Below, piece after piece: positions 1,979 to 43,447 of a DNA stretch of 64,000 nucleotides. The stretch lies in assembly GCA_965230845.1 (NCBI GenBank), contig OZ246021.1:57184-121183 (forward strand). The letters run 5' to 3'. The stretch's first letter is position 1, and each line of letters begins with the position of its first letter. This DNA comes from Aquimarina sp. (GTDB lineage Bacteria; Bacteroidota; Bacteroidia; Flavobacteriales; Flavobacteriaceae). The notes beneath the pieces are model-generated. The model saw only the letters and a list, made by a program, of their open reading frames with translations, made no database searches and was not told the origin of the DNA. Made by a program: the position numbers and the translations under genes.

Positions 1979-2132
1979 TTTTATTTTAGTTTTTGTAAGT
2001 AATGTTTCTCACACAAAAGCTTAGTTTCATTCGTACAAATGCTCCGCGTCAAGGTCAAATAAGTTTTACAACTACTTTAACAATGGGCTATACTAAATTT
2101 CTTGTACCTTGTGCGGCAAAGAAATTGACCCT

Positions 2133-3260
2133 ATGAAAATTGCGATTGTTTGTTACCCTACTTTTGGAGGTAGTGGAGTAGTGGCTACCGAGTTAGGTAT
2201 TGCCTTGGCAAAATTGAACCATGAAGTTCATTTTATTACCTATAAACAGCCTGTACGCTTGGATTTGTTAAATCCTAACATTCATTTTCATGAGGTTCAT
2301 GTTCCAACCTATCCGCTATTTTTATATCAACCCTATGAGTTGGCTTTATCTAGTAAGCTTGTGGGTATCATTAAGAAACATAATATAGATGTTCTACATG
2401 TACATTACGCAATACCACATGCGTATGCAGGATACATGGCCAAAAAGATGCTAGAAGAAGAGGGAATTTACATCCCGATGCTAACCACGCTTCATGGTAC
2501 CGATATAACATTAGTTGGTAATCATCCAAATTATAAACCAGCGGTTACTTTCAGTATTAACAATAGCGATATTGTTACTTCGGTTTCGCAAAGTTTAAAA
2601 GACGATACTTTACGTTTGTTCAATATCAAACAGGATATTAAGGTAGTTCCAAACTTTATTGATGTAAGCCAACAGAAAACAAGCTTTACCGATTGCCAAA
2701 GAGAGGTTATGGCAGCACCAGAAGAACGTATTGTGACCCATATTAGTAATTTTAGACCAGTAAAAAGAATTACAGATATCATAGATATCTTTAATAATAT
2801 TCAAAAAGAAATGCCAGCCAAATTGTTGATGGTTGGAGAAGGACCAGAGCGCAAACCGGCAGAACAGAAGTGTAAAGAGCTGGGGATTAAGGATAAGGTG
2901 ATCTTTCTCGGTAATAGCAATGAGATTGATAAGATTTTGTGTTTTTCAGACCTATTCTTGCTACCTTCAGAACGAGAGAGCTTTGGTTTAGCGGCCTTAG
3001 AAGCTATGGTGAATAAAGTGCCTGTTATATCAAGTAATGCCGGAGGAATTCCAGAAGTAAATCGTCATGGGGTGTCAGGGTACCTAAGTAATGTTGGCGA
3101 TGTTGAAGAAATGTCAGCAAACGCGATTAAAATTCTTAAAGATGACGATGTATTAGAACAGTTTAAGGAGAATGCATACAAAGAAGCAAAAACATTTGAT
3201 GTAAACGAAATCGTTCCTAAATACATTGCTTTATACGAAGGTGCATTAGCAATGACTTAG
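2133..3260 (+). CDS. bshA: N-acetyl-alpha-D-glucosaminyl L-malate synthase (bacillithiol pathway, GT4)
   Basis: MKIAIVCYPTFGGSGVVATELG, HVHYAIPHA, TTLHGTDIT and ESFGLAALEAM motifs. The ATG at 2133 is preferred over the GTG at 2109. Confidence 0.93.
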   Translation: MKIAIVCYPTFGGSGVVATELGIALAKLNHEVHFITYKQPVRLDLLNPNIHFHEVHVPTYPLFLYQPYELALSSKLVGIIKKHNIDVLHVHYAIPHAYAGYMAKKMLEEEGIYIPMLTTLHGTDITLVGNHPNYKPAVTFSINNSDIVTSVSQSLKDDTLRLFNIKQDIKVVPNFIDVSQQKTSFTDCQREVMAAPEERIVTHISNFRPVKRITDIIDIFNNIQKEMPAKLLMVGEGPERKPAEQKCKELGIKDKVIFLGNSNEIDKILCFSDLFLLPSERESFGLAALEAMVNKVPVISSNAGGIPEVNRHGVSGYLSNVGDVEEMSANAIKILKDDDVLEQFKENAYKEAKTFDVNEIVPKYIALYEGALAMT

Positions 3261-14115: not shown

Positions 14116-15180
14116 ATGGCAGGAAATACATTTGGAAACCTTTTTAAGCTCACCACTTTCGGTGAATCTCATGGGGTTGCAATTGGAGGTATTATTGATG
14201 GTTGTCCATCAGGTGTTACATTAGATTTAGAAGCAATTCAGCAAGAATTAGACAGAAGAAAACCGGGACAATCTGCAATCGTAACACAGCGGAAAGAACC
14301 GGATACGGTGGAGTTCTATTCTGGTATTTTTGAAGGGGTTACTACAGGGACTCCTATCGGCTTCGTGATTAAAAATGCAAATCAAAAGTCTAAAGATTAC
14401 TCTCATATCAAAGATTCTTATCGCCCTTCGCATGCAGATTATACCTATGACCAAAAGTATGGGATTCGTGATTACAGAGGAGGAGGAAGGTCTTCAGCAA
14501 GAGAAACCGCTAGCAGAGTAGTGGCTGGAGCTATTGCAAAGCAAATCTTATCGGATGTATCTATTAATGCATATGTAAGTGGTGTAGGTACTTTAAAATT
14601 GCAAAAAAGTCATACTGAATTAGATTTATCACAAACAGAAAGCAATATTGTTCGCTGTCCCGATCCAGAAATGGCTAGTGAAATGGAACAATATATCAAG
14701 CAGATACGAAAAGAAGGAGATACCGTTGGTGGGATTGTAAGTTGTGCGATCTCTGGAGTTCCTGTTGGATTGGGAGAACCTGTTTTTGATAAGTTACATG
14801 CAGAATTGGGTAAAGCTATGCTTTCCATCAATGCTGTAAAAGGTTTTGAGTATGGTAGTGGATTTGATGGAGCTGCCTTAAAAGGAAGTGAGCATAATGA
14901 TTTGTTCAATACAGATGGTAGCACAAAAACTAATCTCTCTGGTGGTATTCAAGGTGGAATTTCTAATGGGATGGATATCTATTTCAATGTGGCATTTAAA
15001 CCTGTAGCTACCATTATGCAAGATCAAGAAACTATTGATAAAGATGGAAATACAGTAACCATGCAAGGTAAAGGAAGACATGATCCGTGTGTAGTGCCTA
15101 GAGCCGTGCCCATTGTAGAAGCTATGGCCGCTTTGGTATTGGTAGATTATTGGTTAATGAATCGCACAATAAAAAAGTAA
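14116..15180 (+). CDS. aroC: Chorismate synthase
   Basis: [22 protein letters not shown] and GRHDPCV motifs. Confidence 0.98.
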
Positions 15181-15205
15181 ATACAAAATAACAGTATTAT
15201 TAATT

Positions 15206-15236
15206 ACGGTAATCTCAATAGGGTTACCGTTTTTTT
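15206..15236 (+). terminator. Intrinsic terminator after aroC
   Basis: ACGGTAATCT/GGGTTACCGT stem followed by a T-run. Confidence 0.8.
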
Positions 15237-15280
15237 GTATTTAATTCATATATTCGACCCACTTTATACAAATTACTTTT

Positions 15281-16606
15281 ATGAAAAAGCTAGCACTGCA
15301 CTGGAAAATTATGATTGGAATGCTATTAGGGATAGTATTCGGATTTATAATGACAACTGTTTCTTGGGGTAAAGGATTTACAGGAGATTGGATAGCTCCC
15401 TTGGGAACTATCTTTGTGAACCTTTTAAAATTGATTGCAGTGCCTTTAATTTTAGCATCATTAATCAAAGGGATTTCTGATCTGAAAGATATTTCAAAAT
15501 TCAAGGCGATAGGTGGAAGAACCATCGTGATTTATATTCTAACAACCGTGGTGGCTATTACAATCGGATTGTTGATCGTAAATGTGGCAAAACCCGGGGA
15601 TGGAATTACTGAAGCTACTATCGAAAAGTTAACCAATGAGTATGCAGGAAATTCAAAGATTTCTGAACGTATTGCTGAAGCTGGTAGACAGAAGGAAAGT
15701 GGTCCGTTGCAATTTATAGTGGATATGGTACCACAAAATGCGGTGGCTGCGATGAGTAATAACAAGTTAATGCTTCAGGTGATATTTTTCGCTATTTTCT
15801 TAGGGATAAGTATGTTGTTGGTAAAACCGTCAGAATCCGAGCCACTAAAGAAGTTTTTTGATAGTTTGAATGAAGTTGTGCTAAAAATGGTCGACTTGAT
15901 CATGCTTACAGCACCATACGCAGTGTTTGCTTTGTTAGCCAATGTGGTAGTTACCTCTGATGATCCGGATATCTTATTAGCGTTATTGAAGTATGCAGGA
16001 GTAGTATTATTTGGATTATCCTTAATGATTATTTTTTACTGTATTTTGGTTGCTGTTATTACCAAAAAATCTCCTTTTTGGTTTTTAAAACAAATAAGTC
16101 CAGCACAATTACTAGCGTTCTCTACTAGTTCTAGTGCTGCTACGCTTCCTGTTACCATGGAGCGAGTAGAAGAACATATCGGAGTGGATAAGGAAGTTTC
16201 CAGTTTTGTATTGCCAGTAGGAGCAACTATTAATATGGATGGTACTAGTTTATATCAAGCCGTAGCCTCTGTTTTTATTATGCAGGTGTTGTGGCCAGAA
16301 GGGTTAACATTCAGTAATCAAATTACTATTGTACTTACTGCTTTACTAGCTTCTATAGGATCAGCTGCAGTACCTGGTGCAGGTATGGTGATGTTGGTGA
16401 TTGTTTTGGAGGCTATTGGATTTCCTTCAGATAAACTGCCGATTGGATTGGCATTAATCTTTGCGGTAGATCGACCGTTAGATATGCTTCGTACAACTAT
16501 CAATGTAACTGGAGATGCTACCGTATCTATGATTGTAGCCAAGTCTGTTGGTAAACTTGGAGATCCGCATGTTAAAGATTGGGATGATAATTATCCTGGA
16601 GAATAA
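15281..16606 (+). CDS. Dicarboxylate/amino acid:cation symporter (GltP/DAACS family)
   Basis: FSTSSSAATLP and GATINMDGT signature motifs. Confidence 0.93.
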   Translation: MKKLALHWKIMIGMLLGIVFGFIMTTVSWGKGFTGDWIAPLGTIFVNLLKLIAVPLILASLIKGISDLKDISKFKAIGGRTIVIYILTTVVAITIGLLIVNVAKPGDGITEATIEKLTNEYAGNSKISERIAEAGRQKESGPLQFIVDMVPQNAVAAMSNNKLMLQVIFFAIFLGISMLLVKPSESEPLKKFFDSLNEVVLKMVDLIMLTAPYAVFALLANVVVTSDDPDILLALLKYAGVVLFGLSLMIIFYCILVAVITKKSPFWFLKQISPAQLLAFSTSSSAATLPVTMERVEEHIGVDKEVSSFVLPVGATINMDGTSLYQAVASVFIMQVLWPEGLTFSNQITIVLTALLASIGSAAVPGAGMVMLVIVLEAIGFPSDKLPIGLALIFAVDRPLDMLRTTINVTGDATVSMIVAKSVGKLGDPHVKDWDDNYPGE

Positions 16607-33617: not shown

Positions 33618-34775
33618 CTATTTGAGATTGGTTAGAATAAAATCCAGCTTTTTATTAGTATTCAAATTTTGAGCAAAAGAGTCGGTAACATGCTTACTTC
33701 GATTGGCAAGCCCTAGTTCCTGTAAACGTAAGATACTATCTTTATTTTCTAGGGTCACTTTACCGGTAAGTAATAGATTCATATCCTGCTCAGAGTGGTA
33801 GTAATCATATACTTTCTTTAACCCGGTAAGATATAAGTAATCTTTGGTAAATCCGCCTCCTCGATGCACTCTGAGTGTGATCTGCCAGGCAGCTTCGCGA
33901 TCTAATTTGTATTGACTATATAACAAATCAAAAGTACCTTTAAAATCGTATCCTTTGATCAGACTATCAGCAGCAATAACTCTATAGGCAAGTTCTTTCA
34001 TTCTCTTCAAAGTCAAACTACCTGACATATATTCGCTCAACACCGCTAGTCCTTCTTGAGTTTCCGTATTGTTTACAAAACCATTAGAGAAAACTTTTAG
34101 CGGCTGACTTTTTCCATTAAAAGTAGTGACCATATGTACTCCAATTTCATGATTGGCCAAAACCTTTAACTCGTTTTCGCTGAATTTATAATTCCTTTTT
34201 AATACTAATGTTTCTGATGCGTTTAGTACCATAGCAGAAGCCGAGATATGAGTAGATTTTTTAATATTAAAATCAAAATCATATCGTTTAGAAAATTCAT
34301 TAAAATAACTTTCAGCTTCGTCAACAGAGTACTTCTTGATCATACTCTCGGGCATGGGTTCGTCTTCAAAATGAAGAATAAAGCGGGCATTTTCTACATC
34401 ACGTTCCTTGGGTGTTCCAAACACTTTTAAGGAATTGTAGTAAAAATTCTTTCCACTCCCAATGGTTTCTATGCATTGTATAAGGCCAGAATATTCATAA
34501 ATAATATCCTGATATAACTTTCTGATCTGTTTATCCTCAATGCGCTCTAATTTTTGATCAAAAAACAAGCGCTGTAATTTGTAAGGATTAAACTTGATCT
34601 TGCGATACTTAAAAGTGGGATTTTTTCGGTATTTGCTGGTGAAAAACAGTTTTTTTTCCTGCTCAATATTCAGAGGATTAAGAAAATTGAGTAATTCAAT
34701 ATTCTTGACCAGACGATCCAAATTTTGATCGATCTTAAAAAGATCACTATAGGTGGCTACAACATCTTCAATCAT
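33618..34775 (-). CDS. QEGLA-motif (DUF1704, MATCAP-like) putative metallocarboxypeptidase
   Basis: HEIGVH (HExxxH) followed by TQEGLAVLSE; GGGFTKDYLY. Confidence 0.88.
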   Translation of the reverse strand: MIEDVVATYSDLFKIDQNLDRLVKNIELLNFLNPLNIEQEKKLFFTSKYRKNPTFKYRKIKFNPYKLQRLFFDQKLERIEDKQIRKLYQDIIYEYSGLIQCIETIGSGKNFYYNSLKVFGTPKERDVENARFILHFEDEPMPESMIKKYSVDEAESYFNEFSKRYDFDFNIKKSTHISASAMVLNASETLVLKRNYKFSENELKVLANHEIGVHMVTTFNGKSQPLKVFSNGFVNNTETQEGLAVLSEYMSGSLTLKRMKELAYRVIAADSLIKGYDFKGTFDLLYSQYKLDREAAWQITLRVHRGGGFTKDYLYLTGLKKVYDYYHSEQDMNLLLTGKVTLENKDSILRLQELGLANRSKHVTDSFAQNLNTNKKLDFILTNLK

Positions 34776-34854
34776 TATCTTGTCGTTGATTCTTTAAGGA
34801 TTCGAGAATCACAAACTAACTGCAAAAAATGCAGATTAACAAATAGGTTAGCAT

Positions 34855-35688
34855 TTAATCAATGAATCGGTCAAAAAATGATTTTGCGTGATCGGGGAGT
34901 ATGGTTTTTAACTGTGTTTCTATAGCGTGAACTACTTCAGGATATAGGACATAATTCAGTTCATCGCAATATATTTTTGAAAATTCTGTAGCCAACACCA
35001 GGGTGTTCTTAAAGTTTGAGGTGATGTATTTTAGAAAATAACCATTTCCTTGAAAAGTGTCATTTATAGCTGCGGATGTTTTCTCAATATGTGGTAGTTT
35101 AATGTTAGACAATGCAGTACACCAGGATTGTGCAAAGGCATCGTATTTGGTGTGATCAATATTTTTGGTTCCCAAGTTGATAATAGGTACTTCTCGATCC
35201 CATCGCCTCCAGTTGTAGGAGTGCATATCATAAACGATTGCAGCTCCGTGTTTTGACTCGATTTTTGAAATCAAAGCCTGAACAACTTTGTAAAAATTAT
35301 GATGCTTTTCAAGAGATCTGCGTTTTACTTCTGCTGGTAATGGGGTTTTCCAAAGCTTTTTACCCCAGGCGTCTTCATAAACCGCAATTTCAGGAGATCT
35401 GTTTAAATCATATTCAAATCTTGAGTCGCATCCAGCAATAACAATAGGGTGACTTTGCACCATTTGTCGGGTAGCAGGATCCTCTTCATACCAACGATCG
35501 TATTCAGAATGTAAGCAGTATTCCCAAAGTTCTTTTCGAAATTGATGACCATCGTGTACGGCTGCACACACATAATAGTCATAAGCCTCGATTTTCAAAG
35601 TAAAAGAATAGTCGTTGGAAACGGCATGGAAAGGTTCTTCCCGATGTATTTTTTCAATGATATCCTCGATGGATAGTTTAAGCATCAT
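34855..35688 (-). CDS. N-formylglutamate amidohydrolase family protein
   Basis: AVHDGH, SRFEYDLNR and YDMHS motifs. Confidence 0.85.
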   Translation of the reverse strand: MMLKLSIEDIIEKIHREEPFHAVSNDYSFTLKIEAYDYYVCAAVHDGHQFRKELWEYCLHSEYDRWYEEDPATRQMVQSHPIVIAGCDSRFEYDLNRSPEIAVYEDAWGKKLWKTPLPAEVKRRSLEKHHNFYKVVQALISKIESKHGAAIVYDMHSYNWRRWDREVPIINLGTKNIDHTKYDAFAQSWCTALSNIKLPHIEKTSAAINDTFQGNGYFLKYITSNFKNTLVLATEFSKIYCDELNYVLYPEVVHAIETQLKTILPDHAKSFFDRFID

Positions 35689-36709
35689 CTACAGTTTTTC
35701 TGAGTTTCGCTTTGCGATCGAATCTGTTTACGCGTTGTACTACCTTATCTTCGATAAAATCAACTACCTTTTCTTGTAGTCGTACTTTATATTTTTTATT
35801 GATATAAGTGATTCCTCCTGGACTCATCACATTTACTTCAACCAACATTCCATTAATAACATCGATACCTACAAAATACAACCCATCTTTGACCAATTTG
35901 GGTCCAATCTTTCTACAAAGTTCTTTCTCGGTCTTCGTTAATGAGTGCTTTACTACAGAACCTCCAGCGGTTACATTAGATCGGTGATCATCTTCCCCTG
36001 GAATTCTTCGCATTGCTCCAATAGGTTTCCCGTTGAGGAGCAATATACGTACATCGCCTTGGTCAGCACCTTCTATATAATCCTGAAGAATCACATAATT
36101 ACTGGATCCATCTTTGTTATCGATATAGAAATCCAACAAAGATCTGATACTTCTCATCGCACCTTTTTCGATCAGAATAACTCCTGAACCACCAAAACCA
36201 TTCAATGGTTTCAATATCATCTTATCATTTGGAGCCTCTTTGATTATCTTGATAAGGTACTCCTTATTTTTGGTAACGTGAGTTTTAGGAATAAAATGAG
36301 TTTCCAAATCATCAAAAGCTGCAGTATATAGCTTGTTGTTGGATCTACGAATACCATCAATGTCATTCATGATAAAAACATCATCTTTTACCGAATCCAA
36401 AAAGTTAAGCATGATCATATCCAGAGGAGGATTGCTACGTAAAATGATAACATCAAATCCAGCCAGTGGCAACATTTCATCCCTAAAAGTAGTTTTGGCA
36501 TGAAAGGATTTCATCGAAGAAGAAATCTTTTCGGCTCTATTGATTACTTTACAAAAAGAGAAGGTGACACTATCCCTAATCGTCAAATTATAGGGAGTTG
36601 CAAGAGCAACACCATGTCCTCGTTTAGCACATTCATGAATAAGTGTTAGGGAAGTATCATTTTCAGGATCTATTTCTTCCCATGGATACATTAAAAAGCA
36701 AACATTCAT
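35678..36709 (-). CDS. gshB: Glutathione synthetase-like ATP-grasp ligase
   Basis: GshB-type N-terminus (MYPWEEIDPENDTS), KPLNGFGGSGV, GDVRILL, RSNVTAGG, GIDVI and EVNVMSPGG. Physiological product uncertain. Confidence 0.8.
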   Translation of the reverse strand: MNVCFLMYPWEEIDPENDTSLTLIHECAKRGHGVALATPYNLTIRDSVTFSFCKVINRAEKISSSMKSFHAKTTFRDEMLPLAGFDVIILRSNPPLDMIMLNFLDSVKDDVFIMNDIDGIRRSNNKLYTAAFDDLETHFIPKTHVTKNKEYLIKIIKEAPNDKMILKPLNGFGGSGVILIEKGAMRSIRSLLDFYIDNKDGSSNYVILQDYIEGADQGDVRILLLNGKPIGAMRRIPGEDDHRSNVTAGGSVVKHSLTKTEKELCRKIGPKLVKDGLYFVGIDVINGMLVEVNVMSPGGITYINKKYKVRLQEKVVDFIEDKVVQRVNRFDRKAKLRKTVDDA

Positions 36710-36798
36710 TGTAGACGATTTTTGAATGTGAAAATTTACGTTTTTTATTAGAAAATCAAGAAAAATCCTAAAATAAAGTTTCTTCTATGTTGAAACTA

Positions 36799-37383
36799 TT
36801 ATTCGCATTTGATGTTTACACCTACTTTATTTAATTTTTTCCATACCGGATGGCTTGTAGGTTGTGGTGAAATATCAAAACGAACCAAATGTTTGTTTTC
36901 CTTTTGACAAGGTGTGTGATTCACCATGATAAAAAGTTCAACGGGTTGTTTTGTGATAAAAGCATCATAGGTCAAAACTTTGCCTACAAACGTAGTTGCG
37001 CTAATTTTTTCAAAAAAGGCCTTTGATTTCGGGATTTGATTCTCATTGACATCCGATTTTGCAACGATATTCATGAGGCCATCGTAATAGATTTCAAGTT
37101 CTTTTTCTATTTTTTTGGCAGATAACGTTGGATCTTGATCAATTTCCCACAAAAAAACATAAGAAAAATAGTCTTTTGCTCCTTTGGTTCCCCATCCGGG
37201 AGCAAATTGTACATATTCTACACCTGTATATGCTAATGAAGGTGCAAAATCTAAGGGAAGCTGAAGAATTTCACTTCTCCAACCATCGGGCGCAGAAAGC
37301 TTGTTTTTGACAGATTTTTCTGGGCTACATTGTAAGAATAATAAAAAAAATATAAAAAAAGGTATGGTTTTTGTCAATTTCAT
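36799..37383 (-). CDS. Hypothetical exported protein/lipoprotein
   Basis: Hydrophobic signal ending FLQC; no recognised domain. Confidence 0.65.
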   Translation of the reverse strand: MKLTKTIPFFIFFLLFLQCSPEKSVKNKLSAPDGWRSEILQLPLDFAPSLAYTGVEYVQFAPGWGTKGAKDYFSYVFLWEIDQDPTLSAKKIEKELEIYYDGLMNIVAKSDVNENQIPKSKAFFEKISATTFVGKVLTYDAFITKQPVELFIMVNHTPCQKENKHLVRFDISPQPTSHPVWKKLNKVGVNIKCE

Positions 37384-38398: not shown

Positions 38399-39688
38399 TT
38401 ACCGCAGTAAGAACTCTTTTAGTTTTTGATAACTATCTATAGGAATGTTTTGTTTCTCTTTGTCTAGAACACTCTGAATCTGCTCAGGAATTTCTACAGT
38501 AACATCCAAGGTATCTTCTACGATATCAAGGAATTTTACAGGATGAGCGGTTTCCAGAAAAATACCGTAATCTGTTCCATTTAATTGATGTTCCTTTAAA
38601 CCTAAATACCCAACAGCACCGTGTGGATCGGTGATATATCCACTAGTATCAAATACACTTTTCATTGCCTCTTTGGTTTGCAGATCATCAAAACTATAGG
38701 CGGAGAAAGAATCCTTTAGTACTTCAAAGTTGTTGCCAAATAACTCTTGAATTCTAATAAAATTACTAGGGTTACCTACATCCATCGCATTTGATATGGT
38801 AGCTTTTGAAGGTTTAGGTTCGTACTTTTCTGTTTGTAAATAAGAAACAACGGTATCATTGATATTGGTAGAAGCTATAAAATGCTTTACCGGAAGACCT
38901 AATTTTTTGGCGACAATACCCGCACAGATGTTTCCAAAATTACCACTAGGTACCGAAAATGTAATTTCTTTTCCTTTGTGTTTTACCTGCTTATAGGCAA
39001 ACAAAAAGTATAACAATTGTGGAAGCCATCTGGCTACATTGATAGAATTTGCTGAAGTTAGTTGAACACTATCAGTAATACTAGTGTCTAGAAATGCAGT
39101 TTTGACCATATCCTGGCAATCGTCAAAAACGCCATCAACTTCTAATGCAGTAATGTTTTGGCCAAGAGTCGTTAACTGCCTTTCCTGAATGTCACTTACT
39201 TTTCCTTTAGGATAGAGAATTACAACTTCGACTCCCTCAACTCCTAAGAATCCTTTTGCTACGGCTCCTCCTGTATCGCCGGAAGTCGCCACCAAAACAG
39301 TAACCTTGTTTTTATTATGTTGATTAAAATAACCCAGGCACCTAGCCATAAAACGAGCACCCACATCTTTGAATGCCATGGTTGGCCCATGAAACAATTC
39401 TAATGTTCCTATGTTGTCCTGAATATCTACTACAGGGAAATCAAAACTCAAAACATCCTTTAAAATATCTTTGAGTTCTTCTTCAGGAATTTCATCACCT
39501 ACAAATTGTTGGATCGTCCGAAAAGCAATTTCAATGTTATCCAACGTATCGATAGTTTCAAAAAAACTATCGGGCAGGGGAGTTATGTTTTCTGGAAAAT
39601 ACAAGCCCCTATCTGGCGCCAAACCTTTGATAACAGCTTCAGAAAAAGAAACTTTTGGTGCGTTATGATTTAAACTATAATATAACAT
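38399..39688 (-). CDS. thrC: Threonine synthase
   Basis: ELFHGPTMAFKD, ATSGDTG, SANSINVARW and VPSGNFGN motifs. Confidence 0.97.
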   Translation of the reverse strand: MLYYSLNHNAPKVSFSEAVIKGLAPDRGLYFPENITPLPDSFFETIDTLDNIEIAFRTIQQFVGDEIPEEELKDILKDVLSFDFPVVDIQDNIGTLELFHGPTMAFKDVGARFMARCLGYFNQHNKNKVTVLVATSGDTGGAVAKGFLGVEGVEVVILYPKGKVSDIQERQLTTLGQNITALEVDGVFDDCQDMVKTAFLDTSITDSVQLTSANSINVARWLPQLLYFLFAYKQVKHKGKEITFSVPSGNFGNICAGIVAKKLGLPVKHFIASTNINDTVVSYLQTEKYEPKPSKATISNAMDVGNPSNFIRIQELFGNNFEVLKDSFSAYSFDDLQTKEAMKSVFDTSGYITDPHGAVGYLGLKEHQLNGTDYGIFLETAHPVKFLDIVEDTLDVTVEIPEQIQSVLDKEKQNIPIDSYQKLKEFLLR

Positions 39689-39699
39689 TTGTTTGTCGA

Positions 39700-40068
39700 T
39701 TAATGGTTGAGTACGGCCGAAAACTCTATCTCGACCAAAATTTCGGGATCAATGAGTTTAGCTACTTCTACAAGAGTAGCAACAGGTCGTATTTCTTTAA
39801 AAAATTCTCCGTGTGCTTTTCCTATCAATTCCCATTTTGAAATATCGGTACAGTACATCCTAGTGCGTACCACATTATTAAGGTCTGCTCCAAGATCCTT
39901 TAATGCTTGTTCGGCAATTTTGATAATACCTACAGTTTGCTCATATTCATTTGCTCCACTGGCTGTAGTTCCAGAAATTTCAATAATATCTCCTATTTTA
40001 ATAGCTCTTGAATATCCTACAATATCTTCCCAGGGAGCTCCAGTACTTATTTTCTTTATTTCTTTCAT
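39700..40068 (-). CDS. Rid (YjgF/YER057c/UK114) family protein lacking the catalytic Arg
   Basis: GYSRAIKIG, ISGT and LVEIE motifs; PVAT where RidA has PARS. Confidence 0.88.
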   Translation of the reverse strand: MKEIKKISTGAPWEDIVGYSRAIKIGDIIEISGTTASGANEYEQTVGIIKIAEQALKDLGADLNNVVRTRMYCTDISKWELIGKAHGEFFKEIRPVATLVEVAKLIDPEILVEIEFSAVLNH

Positions 40069-41003
40069 TATGAATCGATTATTTTAACGCCTTTATCATT
40101 GATTTTTGAAACATGAATATCAAACGCAAGTCCCGTGGTATCATACACTTCTCGAATTGCAGCAGCAACATGATTAGCTGTTTCAGTTCCTTTGCTAAGC
40201 GCAAAGATCGAAGGTCCAGATCCTGAAATCCCACACCCAAGAGCTCCTTTACTCATTGCAGCTTCTTTCACTGCATTAAATTCAGGTATCAGAATGGATC
40301 GCAATGGCTCAATGATAACATCCTCCAGGCTACGACCAATAAGACCATAATCCTCAGTATACAATCCGGCTACAAGCCCACCAACATTTCCCCACTGCCG
40401 AATCCCATCTTTGAGGGTGATATTAGATTTAATTACAGAACGAGAATCTGAAGTTTTTACCTCGATTTGTGGATGAATTACTGTCATCATTAAATCTTCT
40501 GGGGTATGTAATTTAATAACATCGAGAGGAGAGTAACTACGAACTAGTGTAAAGCCGCCCAACAGGGCAGGGGCTACATTATCTGCATGTGCATTACCAC
40601 TTGCCAGTTTTTCTCCTTCCATAGCAAAGGCAACAAGATCCTGAGGCGAAAAAGGATTGCCTAGCAAATGATTAACCGCCCAAACAGCTCCGGCACTACT
40701 GGCAGCACTGCTCCCAATACCACTTCCTGCTTTTATTTTTTTATAAATCTCTATATCTACTCCCAGGGGTTGATCGTACTTTTTAAGCAAAGCTTCGACA
40801 GCAACACCCGCTACATTTTTGTGTGTTTCGATAGGGAGATCAGCACCTTCAATTTTGGTGATTTTTACACCTGGATCTTCATGAACGGAAATCACCATTT
40901 CGTCACCTACAGTATCCAAACAACATCCTAACACATCAAATCCACAGGATAGGTTGGCTACAGTAGCAGGAGCGAATATTTTAATACGTTTGTTCATCTC
41001 CAC
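40068..41003 (-). CDS. thrB: Homoserine kinase
   Basis: PATVANLSCGFD, GSGIGSSAAS, HADNVAP and ISGSGPS motifs. Confidence 0.97.
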   Translation of the reverse strand: MEMNKRIKIFAPATVANLSCGFDVLGCCLDTVGDEMVISVHEDPGVKITKIEGADLPIETHKNVAGVAVEALLKKYDQPLGVDIEIYKKIKAGSGIGSSAASSAGAVWAVNHLLGNPFSPQDLVAFAMEGEKLASGNAHADNVAPALLGGFTLVRSYSPLDVIKLHTPEDLMMTVIHPQIEVKTSDSRSVIKSNITLKDGIRQWGNVGGLVAGLYTEDYGLIGRSLEDVIIEPLRSILIPEFNAVKEAAMSKGALGCGISGSGPSIFALSKGTETANHVAAAIREVYDTTGLAFDIHVSKINDKGVKIIDS

Positions 41004-43447
41004 TATTTTTTACCTATTCTAATGATATCTGCAAAAATTCCTGAAGCAGTTACATCTGCTCCGGCACCTGCTCCTTTAACGATAAGAGGCTGTTTAGGAT
41101 ACCTGTCTGTATAAAAAAGAACAATATTATCACTACCCTCAAGGTTGTAAAAAGGATGATCGGCAGGAATGAATTGTAATCCTACTTTTGCCGTACCATC
41201 TTCGTATTGTGCTACATATTTTAATCGACTATCTTTTGCATTGGCTTCCTCAAGTATAGATTTAAAATGAGATTCATTTCCAGTTAATGAGGTGAAAAAA
41301 TCTTCCACATTATTAGTTTCCAAACTATCTGTAGGTAAAAAAGAATCATTTTCAATATCTTCTAGTTCCATGATTTTACCACTTTCTCTGGCTAGAATCA
41401 GAATTTTACGAGCTACATCAACACCACTTAGATCAATTTTTGGATCAGGCTCGGTATATCCTTCTTGCTGTGCTTGTTTTACTATATCATGAAAGGTAAC
41501 ACCTTCTTTGTAATTGTTGAAAACAAAATTGAGACTTCCAGATAAGACTGCCTGTATTTTGTGAATATTATCCCCAGAAGCAATAAGATTATTGAGTGTG
41601 TCTATAATCGGCAAACCAGCACCTACATTGGTTTCGTACAAGAACGAAGCATTAAATTTTCTCGATAGGTTTTTCAACTCTTCATAGTTGTTATACTCGT
41701 CGGCACAAGCAATTTTGTTACAGGTCACCACCGCCATACTTTCGGCCAGATAATATTTGTAAATTTTTGCAATGTCTGGGTTAGCTGTATTATCAACGAA
41801 TATAGAGTTTCGTAGGTTCATTTCCTTTGCTTTTTCAAAAAATGCCTTAGCATCTGCCTTTTCTCCGTTGGCAAGCGCTTCTTCCCATTGATCTAAAGCA
41901 ATACCTCCTTCATCAAAAATCATTTTTCGAGAATTCGACATACCGACCACTCTAATTTTTAGTCTTAGTTTATCTTTAAGATATTTTTTCTGCTGATCTA
42001 GCTGTTCTAATAATTTACTTCCTACATTTCCGACACCAGTAACAAACAAGTTTAATTGTTTTGTTTTTACCTCAAAGAATCTTTCGTGTAACGTATTCAG
42101 TGCTTTTTTGATATCTTTTTCTTCGATGACTACAGAAATATTTTTTTCTGAAGCTCCTTGAGCAATGGCTCTAATGTTGACATTGTTTTTTCCTAAAGTG
42201 CTAAACATTTTACCACTCAATCCCTGATGAGAATACATATTATCTCCAACAAGTGCGACAATGGCTGCCTTGTTTTCAATTTTTACAGGATCTAATCTCT
42301 TTTTTGCGATCTCAAACTCAAAAGTAGTATCCAAAACTGTTTTGGCTTTTGAAGCTTCAGATGCTTCTATCGCCAAACAGATAGAATGTTCTGAGGATGC
42401 TTGAGTGATGAGAATCACATTGATGTTATTAAGAAATAGCGTTTCGAACAAACGTTTTGAAAAACCTGGAATACCCACCATACCACTACCTTCCAAAGAG
42501 ATGATGGAGATGTTATCAATATGACTAATCCCTGTAACTGGTTTTTCCCGGTCCGAGACTTCTCTTGTGATTAATGTCCCTTTAACTTCGGGTTCGAAAG
42601 TGTTTTTGATAACTATAGGGATATTTTTATCCAATACCGGGTGAATAGTTGGTGGATAAATCACCTTCGCTCCAAAATGAGAGAGCTCCATAGCTTCATG
42701 ATATGAAATATGAGCTACTGGTTTGGCTTGTTTTACCAATTTTGGATTAGCGGTGTACATCCCACTTACATCTGTCCAGATTTGTAACTCATTGGCATCC
42801 ATTGCAGCAGCCAGAATTGCAGCAGTAAAATCGGATCCTCCTCTTCCTAGAGTAGTGGGTTCTCCATCTTGTGTTCTAGCCACAAATCCTGGAAACAGAC
42901 ATACCTTGTGTTTTGTAACAGAAGCGAACTTTTGAATCCTTTGATTGGTTTCTTTGTAATCTATAGAAACTTTTGAGTTTACAGTTTTAACAATCAGGTC
43001 TCTTGAATCCTTTAGAAGAATATCAAGCCCTTTTACTTTAGCCGCTTCAGATATAATATAAGAAGACAACATTTCACCAAAACTTGAAATTACCGAAGCA
43101 GTTTTTTCAGACAATTCACTTAATAGAAATACTCCTTCACAAAGAGATTCTAGCGCATTAAGTTCAGATTTTACTTTACTGATAATAGCACTTTGAGAAG
43201 TGATAGGAATTAATTCTTTTATGGCATCAAAATGCCTTTGCTCGATAGTAGCAAGCGTTTGTTTATATGCTTCATTATTGTTTGAGGCTTCTTCTCCTGC
43301 CTGTAATAATAGGTCTGTAATTCCTCCCATCGCAGATACTACCACATACAAAGGTGTGGTAGAAGATTGGTTTTCAATGATATGAATTACCTTTTCTATG
43401 GTAGCCGCATTGGCTACAGACGAACCTCCAAATTTTAGAACGTTCAT
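41003..43447 (-). CDS. thrA: Bifunctional aspartokinase/homoserine dehydrogenase I
   Basis: LKFGGSSV, LGRGGSD, two ACT domains, GVGNVG, YETNVGAGLP and GAGADVTA motifs. Confidence 0.98.
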   Translation of the reverse strand: MNVLKFGGSSVANAATIEKVIHIIENQSSTTPLYVVVSAMGGITDLLLQAGEEASNNNEAYKQTLATIEQRHFDAIKELIPITSQSAIISKVKSELNALESLCEGVFLLSELSEKTASVISSFGEMLSSYIISEAAKVKGLDILLKDSRDLIVKTVNSKVSIDYKETNQRIQKFASVTKHKVCLFPGFVARTQDGEPTTLGRGGSDFTAAILAAAMDANELQIWTDVSGMYTANPKLVKQAKPVAHISYHEAMELSHFGAKVIYPPTIHPVLDKNIPIVIKNTFEPEVKGTLITREVSDREKPVTGISHIDNISIISLEGSGMVGIPGFSKRLFETLFLNNINVILITQASSEHSICLAIEASEASKAKTVLDTTFEFEIAKKRLDPVKIENKAAIVALVGDNMYSHQGLSGKMFSTLGKNNVNIRAIAQGASEKNISVVIEEKDIKKALNTLHERFFEVKTKQLNLFVTGVGNVGSKLLEQLDQQKKYLKDKLRLKIRVVGMSNSRKMIFDEGGIALDQWEEALANGEKADAKAFFEKAKEMNLRNSIFVDNTANPDIAKIYKYYLAESMAVVTCNKIACADEYNNYEELKNLSRKFNASFLYETNVGAGLPIIDTLNNLIASGDNIHKIQAVLSGSLNFVFNNYKEGVTFHDIVKQAQQEGYTEPDPKIDLSGVDVARKILILARESGKIMELEDIENDSFLPTDSLETNNVEDFFTSLTGNESHFKSILEEANAKDSRLKYVAQYEDGTAKVGLQFIPADHPFYNLEGSDNIVLFYTDRYPKQPLIVKGAGAGADVTASGIFADIIRIGKK

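What the first reader, a model, noticed from the sequence alone, without database searches (positions are those of the whole stretch)
33618..36709. ATP-grasp ligase + formylglutamate-amidohydrolase-like + QEGLA/MATCAP-like peptidase: a candidate peptide write/erase system
Seen: three co-oriented genes; the ligase stop overlaps the amidohydrolase start by 11 nt, and an 79-nt gap precedes the peptidase. All catalytic-type motifs look intact (ATP-grasp K/D/E-x-N; HDGH...DMHS; HEIGVH + QEGLA). No gshA or hut gene is nearby, and the window carries bshA, so the thiol buffer may be bacillithiol-type rather than glutathione. Established: ATP-grasp enzymes ligate amino acids to peptides or protein C-termini (GshB, RimK, TTL). 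The DUF1704 fold includes the eukaryotic tubulin C-terminal carboxypeptidases MATCAP/TMCP. Inference: the GshB-like enzyme adds an amino acid to a peptide or protein tail (or builds an unknown oligopeptide) and the two hydrolases remove or recycle it, forming a bacterial analogue of tubulin tyrosination/detyrosination or a new peptide-metabolite cycle.
Basis: partly seen in the sequence, partly recalled or inferred. Interest (0 to 1): 0.8.

Follow-up and report, generated by a model that had tools for sequence, protein, structure and literature searches.

The report
Peptide ligase with two partner hydrolases
Three adjacent genes in a marine Aquimarina encode a glutathione-synthetase-like ligase and two metal-dependent hydrolases that stay together, sometimes fused, across several bacterial phyla; they probably build and break down an unidentified small acidic peptide rather than make glutathione, and this has not been tested in the laboratory.

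Summary
On the minus strand lie a GshB-type ATP-grasp ligase (36709..35678), an FGase-family amidohydrolase (35688..34855, 11-nt overlap) and a DUF1704/MATCAP-family metallocarboxypeptidase (34775..33618, 79-nt gap). All catalytic motifs are intact. The trio is a real evolutionary module. It is collinear in 44/44 Flavobacteriaceae loci despite changing flanks. It recurs in a different gene order on Rhizobiaceae megaplasmids. In Gammaproteobacteria and a cyanobacterium the two hydrolases are one ~660-aa protein placed directly after the ligase, and FGase+ligase fusions also exist. The ligase belongs to a GshB paralogue subfamily (PRK12458). A rhizobial strain carrying a member of this subfamily still lacks glutathione once its canonical gshB is knocked out. 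A published survey found no complete gshA–gshB pathway in Bacteroidetes, and the window carries bshA. The ligase keeps every GshB catalytic residue and both active-site lid loops, so I favour a small glutathione-like peptide substrate over a protein tail. In Photobacterium damselae the operon rises 27–38-fold at low salinity. The tubulin-like protein-tail reading is not excluded but has no specific support. The substrate is unknown.

The parts
35678..36709 (-). GshB-paralogue ATP-grasp ligase (343 aa, NF009110/PRK12458 subfamily). It is the first gene of the operon.
   Evidence: Pfam GSH-S_N plus GSH-S_ATP. NF009110 scores 452 bits against a cutoff of 408, while TIGR01380 scores 233 < 299. The best solved relative is E. 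coli GshB 1GSA (E 8e-37). All GshB catalytic and loop residues are invariant.
34855..35688 (-). FGase-family metal amidohydrolase (277 aa). It is a divergent subfamily, not HutG.
   Evidence: PF05013 scores 62 bits, but the HutG equivalog TIGR02017 scores only 24 against a cutoff of 279. The AF2 model has pLDDT 95.9. Its best folds are the FGase-family entries 2Q7S and 2ODF (TM ~0.7, 14-16% identity), followed by M14 carboxypeptidases. Invariant residues include H45, G47, the EEDP motif at 68-71, D154, H156 and five arginines.
33618..34775 (-). DUF1704/MATCAP-family gluzincin, a predicted metallocarboxypeptidase (385 aa) with HExxxH and QEGLA motifs.
   Evidence: PF08014 scores 354 bits. TIGR02421 scores 316, just under its cutoff of 338.65. 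The AF2 model has pLDDT 93. Its best folds are human MATCAP 7Z5G/7Z6S (probability 1.0, TM 0.55-0.64), followed by M32 carboxypeptidases. Invariant residues are H209, E210, H214, QEGLA at 240-244 and E248.
36710..36798 (-). 89-nt intergenic region upstream of the ligase; probable promoter region of the three-gene operon.
   Evidence: Read directly. A TAAATTTT element about 25 nt before the ATG resembles the Bacteroidetes -7 box (recalled from general knowledge). The sigma-70 scan is not informative here. This assignment is inferred, not shown.
34776..34854 (-). 79-nt spacer between the amidohydrolase and peptidase genes, containing a weak 5-bp hairpin.
   Evidence: The hairpin lies at 34834..34820. 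The number of terminator-like sites in the region is not above the shuffled expectation (5 against 3.1 +/- 2.2). In Gammaproteobacteria this spacer is replaced by an in-frame fusion.
15281..16606 (+). GltP-like (DAACS family) amino-acid/dicarboxylate symporter. It is a possible displaced accessory gene, about 19 kb from the trio in this window.
   Evidence: Its best NCBIfam model is GltP, below the cutoff. It is 78% identical to the symporter directly upstream of the ligase in Tenacibaculum. A symporter sits there in 10/10 non-Aquimarina genome loci sampled and in 33 loci by a stricter automated count. Whether this linkage is functional is not shown.

Best explanation
The three genes form a self-contained cytoplasmic operon that makes and unmakes a small, acidic, glutathione-like peptide of the form N-acyl or gamma-glutamyl amino acid plus one more residue.

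Proposed steps:
1. The GshB-paralogue ligase phosphorylates the C-terminal carboxylate of a small acyl-amino acid or dipeptide, then adds one amino acid to it. This is GshB chemistry.
2. The MATCAP-like zinc carboxypeptidase removes that C-terminal residue again.
3. The FGase-like amidohydrolase splits the remaining N-acyl amino acid. The two hydrolases therefore carry out consecutive steps of product breakdown.

The module is not ordinary glutathione synthesis. At least in Vibrionaceae it is switched on at low salinity.

Shown: the gene linkage and fusions, intact active sites, fold assignments, paralogue status, and salinity-dependent expression in one relative.

Inferred: the small-molecule nature of the substrate, the order of the steps, and that the hydrolases act on the ligase's product.

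Unknown: the identity of the peptide.
For: Linkage:
- 44/44 Flavobacteriaceae loci are collinear while their flanks differ.
- Of metagenome loci with enough upstream sequence, 61/64 have the FGase gene directly upstream and 39/41 have both partners.
- Rhizobiaceae megaplasmids carry the same three families in the order FGase, QEGLA, ligase.

Fusions:
- FGase+MATCAP proteins of about 660 aa account for 117 of the 120 best relatives of the Photobacterium protein, spread over many gammaproteobacterial genera and one cyanobacterium.
- All 7 such genes that were looked up follow the ligase gene directly.
- An FGase+ligase fusion is followed by a MATCAP gene.

Ligase:
- It has the GshB N-terminal domain.
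- R86, K125, K160, the small loop G164-G167, D208, R210, the large loop R225-G240 (including R233 and N235), D273, E281 and N283 are all invariant with E. coli GshB.

Hydrolases:
- The peptidase's nearest folds are all metallocarboxypeptidases: MATCAP, then the M32 family.
- The amidohydrolase's nearest folds are FGase-family entries, then M14 carboxypeptidases. Its five invariant arginines fit a carboxylate-rich small substrate.

Not canonical glutathione synthesis:
- TIGR01380 is failed.
- bshA is in the window.
- A published survey found no complete gshA-gshB pathway in Bacteroidetes, and 21% of gshB-carrying genomes lack gshA.
- The S. meliloti 2011 gshB mutant lacks GSH although its pSymB carries the trio.

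Regulation: in P. damselae the ligase gene rises 38-fold and the fused hydrolase gene 27.5-fold at 1% versus 3% NaCl (gene adjacency confirmed).

Self-contained: no conserved precursor peptide, transporter or regulator gene accompanies the module in gamma-type loci.
Against: - No substrate or product has been identified, and no biochemical data exist for any member.
- The only characterised MATCAP-family enzymes act on protein C-termini.
- The ligase also matches the RimK domain model (71 bits), and RimK is co-induced in P. damselae.
- Co-expressing a ligase with hydrolases that undo its product looks futile unless it is regulated after translation. The hydrolases could instead act upstream of the ligase.
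- The argument that the lid loops imply a small substrate rests on recalled E. coli GshB structural work, not on a test made here.
- The rhizobial ligases are only ~28% identical to this one, so the S. meliloti result transfers only indirectly.
- Absence of gshA from this Aquimarina genome could not be checked.
Confidence: 0.45

Rival explanations
1. Protein or peptide tail write/erase. The ligase adds an amino acid to the C-terminus of a cellular protein. The MATCAP-like enzyme removes it, and the FGase-like enzyme (distantly M14/CCP-like in fold) trims the next acidic residue. This would be a bacterial counterpart of the TTL / MATCAP / CCP tubulin cycle or of RimK modification of S6.
For: - The MATCAP fold and motif are confirmed.
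- The FGase fold is distantly related to M14 carboxypeptidases, including the bacterial CCP-like entries 4A37 and 4B6Z.
- The ligase has a RimK-domain hit.
- RimK is co-induced with the operon in P. damselae.
- The module is self-contained, with no small-molecule pathway genes nearby.
Against: - The ligase is GshB-type, not TTL-type or RimK-type. rimK_fam scores 91 < 143, there is no TTL hit, and the GshB N-terminal domain and both lid loops are kept.
- No conserved target gene lies nearby.
- FGase relatives with a known function act on free N-acyl amino acids (general knowledge).
Confidence: 0.15
2. Salvage or remodelling pathway. The two hydrolases act before the ligase rather than against it. 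They liberate an acyl-amino acid and/or an amine from an N-blocked or C-extended peptide, either endogenous or imported. The ligase then re-joins the pieces into a different product.
For: - FGase+ligase fusions exist. Fusions usually join consecutive steps.
- A GltP-like amino-acid symporter lies directly upstream in most non-Aquimarina Flavobacteriaceae.
- All three genes are co-induced.
Against: - The symporter is absent from gamma-type and rhizobial loci and is 19 kb away in this window.
- All three proteins lack signal peptides (read from the sequences), so any such substrate must first be taken up.
- No direct evidence favours either order of steps.
Confidence: 0.15
3. Osmotic glutamate or amino-acid buffering. 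At low salinity the ligase condenses abundant anionic osmolytes (glutamate-type) into a peptide to lower their osmotic activity. The hydrolases release them again when salinity rises.
For: - The operon is induced 27-38-fold at 1% versus 3% NaCl, together with RimK at 52-fold.
- Carriers are mostly marine genera.
- Occasional neighbours are an MscS-like channel and PtsP/EI-Ntr, and a GltP-like symporter.
Against: - This rests on one transcriptome in one species.
- A GshB-type enzyme adds a single residue, so the osmotic gain would be small.
- The neighbours cited are sporadic (3 of 35 loci).
- Rhizobia also carry the module.
Confidence: 0.1
4. Ordinary glutathione synthetase that merely sits beside two unrelated hydrolase genes.
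For: - NF003573 (the GshB equivalog) is passed narrowly, 284 against a cutoff of 272.
- The catalytic residues are identical to those of GshB.
- Public annotation calls relatives 'glutathione synthase'.
Against: - Linkage and fusions with the hydrolases span several phyla.
- TIGR01380 is failed.
- A published survey found no complete gshA-gshB pathway in Bacteroidetes.
- bshA is present in the window.
- A rhizobial strain carrying a PRK12458 ligase lacks GSH once its canonical gshB is inactivated.
Confidence: 0.06

Closest known systems
Bacterial glutathione synthetase GshB (E. coli, PDB 1GSA)
   Same: Same two-domain architecture. About 31% identity over the full length. All catalytic residues and both flexible loops are conserved. 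The expected chemistry is also the same: an acyl-phosphate forms on a C-terminal carboxylate and is then attacked by an amino acid.
   Different: This ligase belongs to a separate subfamily (PRK12458) and fails the TIGR01380 equivalog cutoff. It has a ~25-aa C-terminal extension. It is always linked or fused to two hydrolases. It occurs in bacteria reported to lack the complete gshA-gshB pathway and alongside a canonical gshB in rhizobia.
Glutathionylspermidine synthetase/amidase (E. coli Gss); recalled from the literature, not tested here
   Same: An ATP-grasp-type ligase and an amidase that undo each other's reaction on one small thiol-peptide conjugate, encoded together and fused. It is the clearest precedent for a small-molecule write/erase pair.
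   Different: The amidase there is a CHAP cysteine hydrolase, not an FGase or MATCAP metallohydrolase. There is one hydrolase rather than two. The ligase family differs, and the substrate is known.
Tubulin tyrosination cycle: TTL, MATCAP/TMCP and CCP carboxypeptidases
   Same: An ATP-grasp ligase adds a C-terminal residue and a MATCAP-family HExxxH enzyme removes it. The fold match to 7Z5G is confirmed. A third enzyme with a carboxypeptidase-like fold trims further. TMCP activities are described in PMC10499314.
   Different: The ligase here is GshB-type, not TTL-type. There is no tubulin and no conserved protein target nearby. The bacterial protein shares only 20-21% identity with MATCAP. The substrate here is probably a small molecule.
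Solo QEGLA proteins (P. aeruginosa PA3697 type; 'flavohemoglobin expression-modulating')
   Same: Same Pfam and NCBIfam family, with the same HExxxH and QEGLA motifs.
   Different: They form a distinct clade (HEGWIH motif, ~426 aa, 25-29% identity). In Pseudoalteromonas and Legionella they have no ligase or FGase neighbour. Their name comes from an effect on the fhp promoter in P. aeruginosa, which says nothing about the trio.
Storage- or metabolite-peptide modules with a ligase plus two hydrolases: cyanophycin synthetase / cyanophycinase / dipeptidase, and NAAG synthetase RIMKLA / GCPII / aspartoacylase; recalled, not tested
   Same: An ATP-grasp ligase builds an amide-linked product. A first hydrolase cuts it, and a second hydrolase splits the remaining N-acyl or dipeptide piece. 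This is the same three-role logic as proposed here.
   Different: The enzyme families of both hydrolases differ, those products are known, and there is no evidence here for a polymer.

Membership tests
Canonical glutathione synthetase GshB (EC 6.3.2.3) | GSH-S_N plus GSH-S_ATP two-domain architecture | tested here: met
   PF02951 scores 83.5 bits and PF02955 183.5 bits.
Canonical glutathione synthetase GshB (EC 6.3.2.3) | Catalytic and Mg/ATP residues plus the two flexible loops of E. coli GshB | tested here: met
   R86, K125, K160, G164, G166, G167, D208, R210, R225, P227, R233, N235, G240, D273, E281 and N283 are invariant in an alignment with E. coli GshB.
Canonical glutathione synthetase GshB (EC 6.3.2.3) | Scores above the curated equivalog cutoffs | tested here: inconclusive
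   TIGR01380 scores 232.8 < 299.05 (fails). NF003573 scores 283.9 > 272 (passes narrowly). The best model is the separate subfamily NF009110, at 452 bits.
Canonical glutathione synthetase GshB (EC 6.3.2.3) | A gshA (or gshF) partner in the genome supplying gamma-Glu-Cys, and glutathione present in the cell | not testable with these tools
   Only the 64-kb window is available, and it has no gshA near the trio. A published survey found no complete gshA-gshB pathway in Bacteroidetes (PMC6282198).
PRK12458 (NF009110) GshB-paralogue subfamily linked to FGase and DUF1704 | Score above the subfamily cutoff | tested here: met
   452.3 bits against a cutoff of 408. The Photobacterium and S. meliloti trio ligases score 480 and 501 bits.
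PRK12458 (NF009110) GshB-paralogue subfamily linked to FGase and DUF1704 | Adjacent or fused FGase-family and DUF1704-family genes | tested here: met
N-formylglutamate amidohydrolase HutG | FGase domain and fold | tested here: met
   PF05013 scores 62 bits against a cutoff of 28.9. The model matches 2Q7S and 2ODF at TM ~0.7.
N-formylglutamate amidohydrolase HutG | HutG equivalog score | tested here: not met
   TIGR02017 scores 24.2 bits against a cutoff of 278.75.
N-formylglutamate amidohydrolase HutG | Histidine-utilisation (hut) gene context | tested here: not met
   No hut genes flank the trio here or in any related locus examined.
MATCAP / DUF1704 (PF08014) gluzincin carboxypeptidases | Family HMM match | tested here: met
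   PF08014 scores 354 bits, E 1e-105. TIGR02421 scores 316, just below its cutoff of 338.65.
MATCAP / DUF1704 (PF08014) gluzincin carboxypeptidases | HExxxH zinc motif plus a downstream glutamate in QEGLA | tested here: met
   H209, E210, H214 and Q240-E241-G-L-A244 are invariant in 14 sequences from four phyla. They align with HEIGTH / EEGLA of human MATCAP.
MATCAP / DUF1704 (PF08014) gluzincin carboxypeptidases | MATCAP catalytic-domain fold | tested here: met
   The AF2 model (pLDDT 93) has human MATCAP 7Z5G/7Z6S as its top PDB hits (probability 1.0, TM 0.55-0.64).
MATCAP / DUF1704 (PF08014) gluzincin carboxypeptidases | Removal of a C-terminal Tyr/Phe from a protein tail (tubulin) | not testable with these tools
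   This needs an enzyme assay. No tubulin-like target or precursor gene is conserved nearby.
RimK-type protein-tail glutamate ligases | RimK family score above cutoff | tested here: not met
   TIGR00768 scores 90.9 < 143.4 and NF007764 scores 53.6 < 331. There is only a domain-level Pfam RimK hit of 71 bits.
TTL-family tubulin ligases | TTL domain | tested here: not met
   No TTL hit among the Pfam matches at E <= 0.01.
Known anti-phage defence systems | Match to a PADLOC model | tested here: not met
   No hit for any of the three proteins. No relative was found on viral contigs.

The most novel reading that the evidence does not exclude
The trio is a reversible C-terminal amino-acid tagging system for a bacterial protein or ribosomal peptide. 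A GshB-derived ligase writes a C-terminal residue, a MATCAP-type enzyme erases it, and an FGase/M14-like enzyme trims the tail further. This would be a prokaryotic forerunner of the tubulin tyrosination/detyrosination/delta-2 cycle, switched by salinity.
Probability: 0.15. Interest if true: 0.9.

Novelty: new variant of a known kind. Interest (0 to 1): 0.6.

Why it matters
- It would give a function to "orphan" gshB genes. A published survey found that 21% of genomes with gshB lack gshA. These genes are routinely annotated as glutathione synthase and so mislead metabolic reconstructions of Bacteroidota and marine Gammaproteobacteria.
- It would provide the first biochemical context for bacterial MATCAP/DUF1704 proteins. 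At present their name comes from an indirect promoter phenotype in Pseudomonas.
- It may show where the eukaryotic tubulin detyrosinase fold came from: a bacterial ligase-plus-hydrolase module.
- If the product is a new glutathione-like or osmotically regulated peptide, it would add a metabolite class to marine bacterial physiology. The strong low-salinity induction in a fish pathogen gives a ready experimental handle.

Tried and rejected
- Literature: full-text searches for QEGLA, DUF1704, TIGR02421/PRK12458/COG3930, and MATCAP combined with ATP-grasp, formylglutamate or operon found no paper on the trio. The amidoligase survey of Iyer et al. 2009 (PMC3268129) may mention this neighbourhood, by my recollection, but it is not held. 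Guessed S. meliloti locus tags found nothing, and the 1021 pSymB record carries no annotation.
- Transcription in Aquimarina: no RNA run was identifiable. The four runs laid on the locus behave like DNA assemblies and gave no operon information.
- Promoter and terminator scan: counts are not above the shuffled expectation, and the sigma-70 consensus is unsuitable for Bacteroidota.
- PDB sequence search for the FGase-like protein found no hit. The fold search was needed instead.
- Defence-system and phage origin were rejected.
- My single genome-contig scan was run with one protein rather than an alignment, so it returned only Flavobacteriaceae. Other phyla had to be reached through plasmid records, cluster look-ups and the metagenome scan.
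- gshA in this genome could not be tested.
- The neighbours in this window (NUDIX, 194-aa ORF, M28 peptidase) were considered as parts of the system and rejected. They are conserved only within Aquimarina.

Full report
**What is there**

The window comes from an Aquimarina. The DUF1704 protein is 98% identical to that of A. spongiae.
- a 343-aa ATP-grasp ligase (36709..35678);
- a 277-aa FGase-family protein (35688..34855), which overlaps the ligase stop by 11 nt;
- a 385-aa DUF1704/MATCAP-family protein (34775..33618), after a 79-nt spacer.

Profile searches confirm the families:
- Ligase: GSH-S_N plus GSH-S_ATP. Its best NCBIfam model is the subfamily NF009110/PRK12458 (452 bits, cutoff 408).
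- Second protein: PF05013 FGase at 62 bits, but the HutG equivalog scores only 24 bits against a cutoff of 279.
- Third protein: PF08014 MATCAP at 354 bits. TIGR02421 'QEGLA' scores 316 bits, just below its cutoff.

The neighbours are SusC/SusD, a NUDIX hydrolase, a 194-aa ORF with no family, an M28 peptidase and the thr operon. No gshA or hut gene is near. bshA is in the window at 2109-3260.

**Is the trio a unit?**

Yes.
- In 44 of 44 Flavobacteriaceae genome loci (Aquimarina, Dokdonia, Gangjinia, Nonlabens, Tenacibaculum, Maribacter) the three genes keep the same order while their flanks change.
- On Rhizobiaceae megaplasmids the same three families occur in a different order: FGase, QEGLA, ligase.
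- In Photobacterium the ligase (61% identical to ours) is followed by a single 665-aa ORF in which FGase and DUF1704 are fused.
- This fusion is widespread. Of the 120 best relatives, 117 carry both domains. They come from Photobacterium, Aliivibrio, Moritella, Marinobacterium, Thiosulfativibrio, Piscirickettsia, Endozoicomonas, methanotrophs and one Leptolyngbyaceae cyanobacterium.
- All seven fused genes I looked up follow a GshB-like ligase gene directly.
- An exhaustive HMMER search with the FGase-like protein found only 505 representative clusters. About 40% of the best hits are such fusions.
- That search also revealed an FGase+ligase fusion. Its gene is followed by a MATCAP gene. It also revealed one FGase+GNAT protein downstream of a ligase.
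- Among the 80 best metagenomic DUF1704 loci, 61 of 64 with at least 900 bp upstream have FGase directly upstream. Of 41 with at least 3.4 kb upstream, 39 have both partners.
- Solo QEGLA proteins in Pseudoalteromonas and Legionella form a separate clade without these partners. The family's odd name comes from such a solo protein, P. aeruginosa PA3697.

**The three enzymes**

*Ligase.* Its closest solved structure is E. coli GshB. I aligned it with E. coli GshB and ten trio ligases from four phyla. Every catalytic residue is invariant, and so are both flexible loops of GshB: R86, K125, K160, G164-G167, D208, R210, R225-G240 (including R233 and N235), D273, E281 and N283. The catalytic roles of D208, R210, D273, E281 and N283 are as described in the preprint read. 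In E. coli GshB these loops close over a small dipeptide substrate. That point is recalled from the structural literature and was not tested here.

*FGase-like protein.* It models with pLDDT 95.9. Its nearest folds are two FGase-family structural-genomics entries (TM ~0.7, 14-16% identity), followed by M14 carboxypeptidases. Its invariant residues include the two putative metal motifs and five arginines.

*DUF1704 protein.* It models with pLDDT 93. Its nearest folds are human MATCAP, followed by M32 carboxypeptidases. The HExxxH and QEGLA motifs are invariant.

None of the three has a signal peptide, judging from their N-termini.

**Not ordinary glutathione synthesis**

- The ligase fails the TIGR01380 equivalog cutoff and passes NF003573 only narrowly.
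- A published genome survey found complete gshA-gshB pathways in Cyanobacteria, Proteobacteria, one actinobacterium and eukaryotes only. It noted that just 79% of gshB-carrying genomes have gshA. It also showed that the flavobacterium Polaribacter makes N-methyl-bacillithiol (PMC6282198).
- In S. meliloti 2011, inactivating the canonical chromosomal gshB abolishes glutathione (PMC7063052), although pSymB of that strain carries the trio (hit H67). The rhizobial member of the subfamily therefore does not replace GshB in culture.

**Regulation and context**

- In P. damselae the 'GshB' gene next to the QEGLA gene rises 38-fold at 1% versus 3% NaCl, and the QEGLA gene itself rises 27.5-fold. Both are among the most induced genes, together with rimK at 52-fold (PMC10308900). 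The adjacency is confirmed.
- No additional gene is consistently linked in gamma-type loci.
- In most non-Aquimarina Flavobacteriaceae a GltP-like symporter lies directly upstream of the ligase. Its orthologue in this window is 19 kb away.
- Sporadic neighbours hint at thiol, gamma-glutamyl or osmotic themes but prove nothing:
  - a 3-mercaptopyruvate sulfurtransferase inserted in the Tenacibaculum operon;
  - a GGACT-like protein and a glutaredoxin in Marinobacterium;
  - DsbD and a thioredoxin-like protein in P. damselae;
  - PtsP and an MscS-like channel in some metagenomic loci.

**Most likely mechanism (confidence about 0.45)**

The module makes and unmakes a small glutathione-like acidic peptide.
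1. The ligase adds one amino acid to the carboxylate of an acyl-amino acid or dipeptide.
2. The MATCAP-like carboxypeptidase removes that residue.
3. The FGase-like amidohydrolase splits the remaining N-acyl amino acid.

This fits the known chemistry of each family. It also fits the fusion of the two hydrolases as consecutive steps. Two kinds of precedent exist, both recalled rather than tested: the fused ligase/amidase for glutathionylspermidine, and ligase-plus-two-hydrolase schemes such as cyanophycin or NAAG metabolism.

Rivals:
- a protein-tail cycle (0.15);
- hydrolases feeding the ligase in a salvage route (0.15);
- osmotic amino-acid buffering (0.10);
- plain glutathione synthesis (0.06).

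**Novelty**

The enzyme families are known, and the genes are annotated in many genomes. No paper in the searchable library treats the trio as a system or identifies its substrate. A 2009 comparative-genomics survey that may mention the neighbourhood could not be read. I rate it a new variant of a known kind, namely ATP-grasp ligase with cognate hydrolases. Interest is moderate to high, because it links orphan gshB genes and bacterial MATCAP homologues in one testable hypothesis.

Noticed in passing
window 2109-3260 (+): bshA (N-acetylglucosaminyl-malate synthase; TIGR03999, 567 bits against a cutoff of 274). The organism probably uses bacillithiol or a derivative as its main low-molecular-weight thiol.
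   Followed up: partly
window 14116-16606 (+): aroC is followed by a GltP-like symporter. In most other Flavobacteriaceae this pair lies directly upstream of the ligase-FGase-DUF1704 trio. In Aquimarina the trio has therefore been moved about 19 kb away from its usual neighbours.
   Followed up: partly
L036 3971-5142 (also L037 and L044; the small ORF alone in L038): Tenacibaculum has two extra genes between the ligase and FGase genes: a 3-mercaptopyruvate sulfurtransferase-like rhodanese protein (NF008557, 235 bits, just under its cutoff) and a 108-aa ORF with no family. This is a possible hint that the substrate contains sulfur.
   Followed up: partly
L048 5263-6000 and L045 5260-6000: The ~250-aa N-terminal extension of the rhizobial QEGLA proteins aligns with the C-terminal half of the FGase domain (hhalign probability 83%, E 8.7e-6), with the DMHS motif replaced by LEMDE. 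It is probably a degenerate FGase domain. If so, these proteins are decayed fusions that sit beside an active stand-alone FGase.
   Followed up: partly
L139 1852-6143; L128 117-4918; L125 178-1887: Three metagenomic loci have PtsP (GAF plus PEP-utilising enzyme, EI-Ntr) directly upstream of the DUF1704 or fused gene and no ligase found in the upstream sequence held. L128 is followed by an MscS-like channel fragment, and L139 is preceded by a GGDEF protein.
   Followed up: partly
L072 2-2139; L090 12-1571: In two short flavobacterial metagenome contigs the GltP-like gene is followed directly by DUF1704, with no ligase or FGase gene in between. The two genes may have been deleted there.
   Followed up: no
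L060 2216-4571: A ligase gene is followed by a 437-aa FGase+GNAT acetyltransferase fusion at the end of the contig. This is a single example, and it is unknown whether a MATCAP gene follows.
   Followed up: no
L046 4566-7239; L050 5223-7212: The solo QEGLA genes of Pseudoalteromonas share neighbours of their own: a DUF3081 protein plus a small hypothetical protein on one side, and a type III PLP-dependent enzyme, DUF1338 and ast genes on the other. This looks like a separate conserved context for the solo clade.
   Followed up: no
window 36799-37383 (-): A 194-aa ORF with a lipoprotein-like N-terminus and no Pfam or NCBIfam match. It is present only in Aquimarina and evolves fast (48-61% identity where the ligase next to it keeps 92-96%).
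   Followed up: partly
window 38399-43447 (-): The thrA, thrB and thrC genes have a 122-aa ORF (39700-40068) between thrB and thrC. By eye it looks RidA/YjgF-like. Its family was not tested.
   Followed up: no
P. damselae transcriptome, PMC10308900: rimK (52-fold) is the top gene induced at low salinity, alongside the trio's ligase and fused hydrolase genes. Two ATP-grasp peptide ligases are therefore co-induced by the same signal.
   Followed up: no
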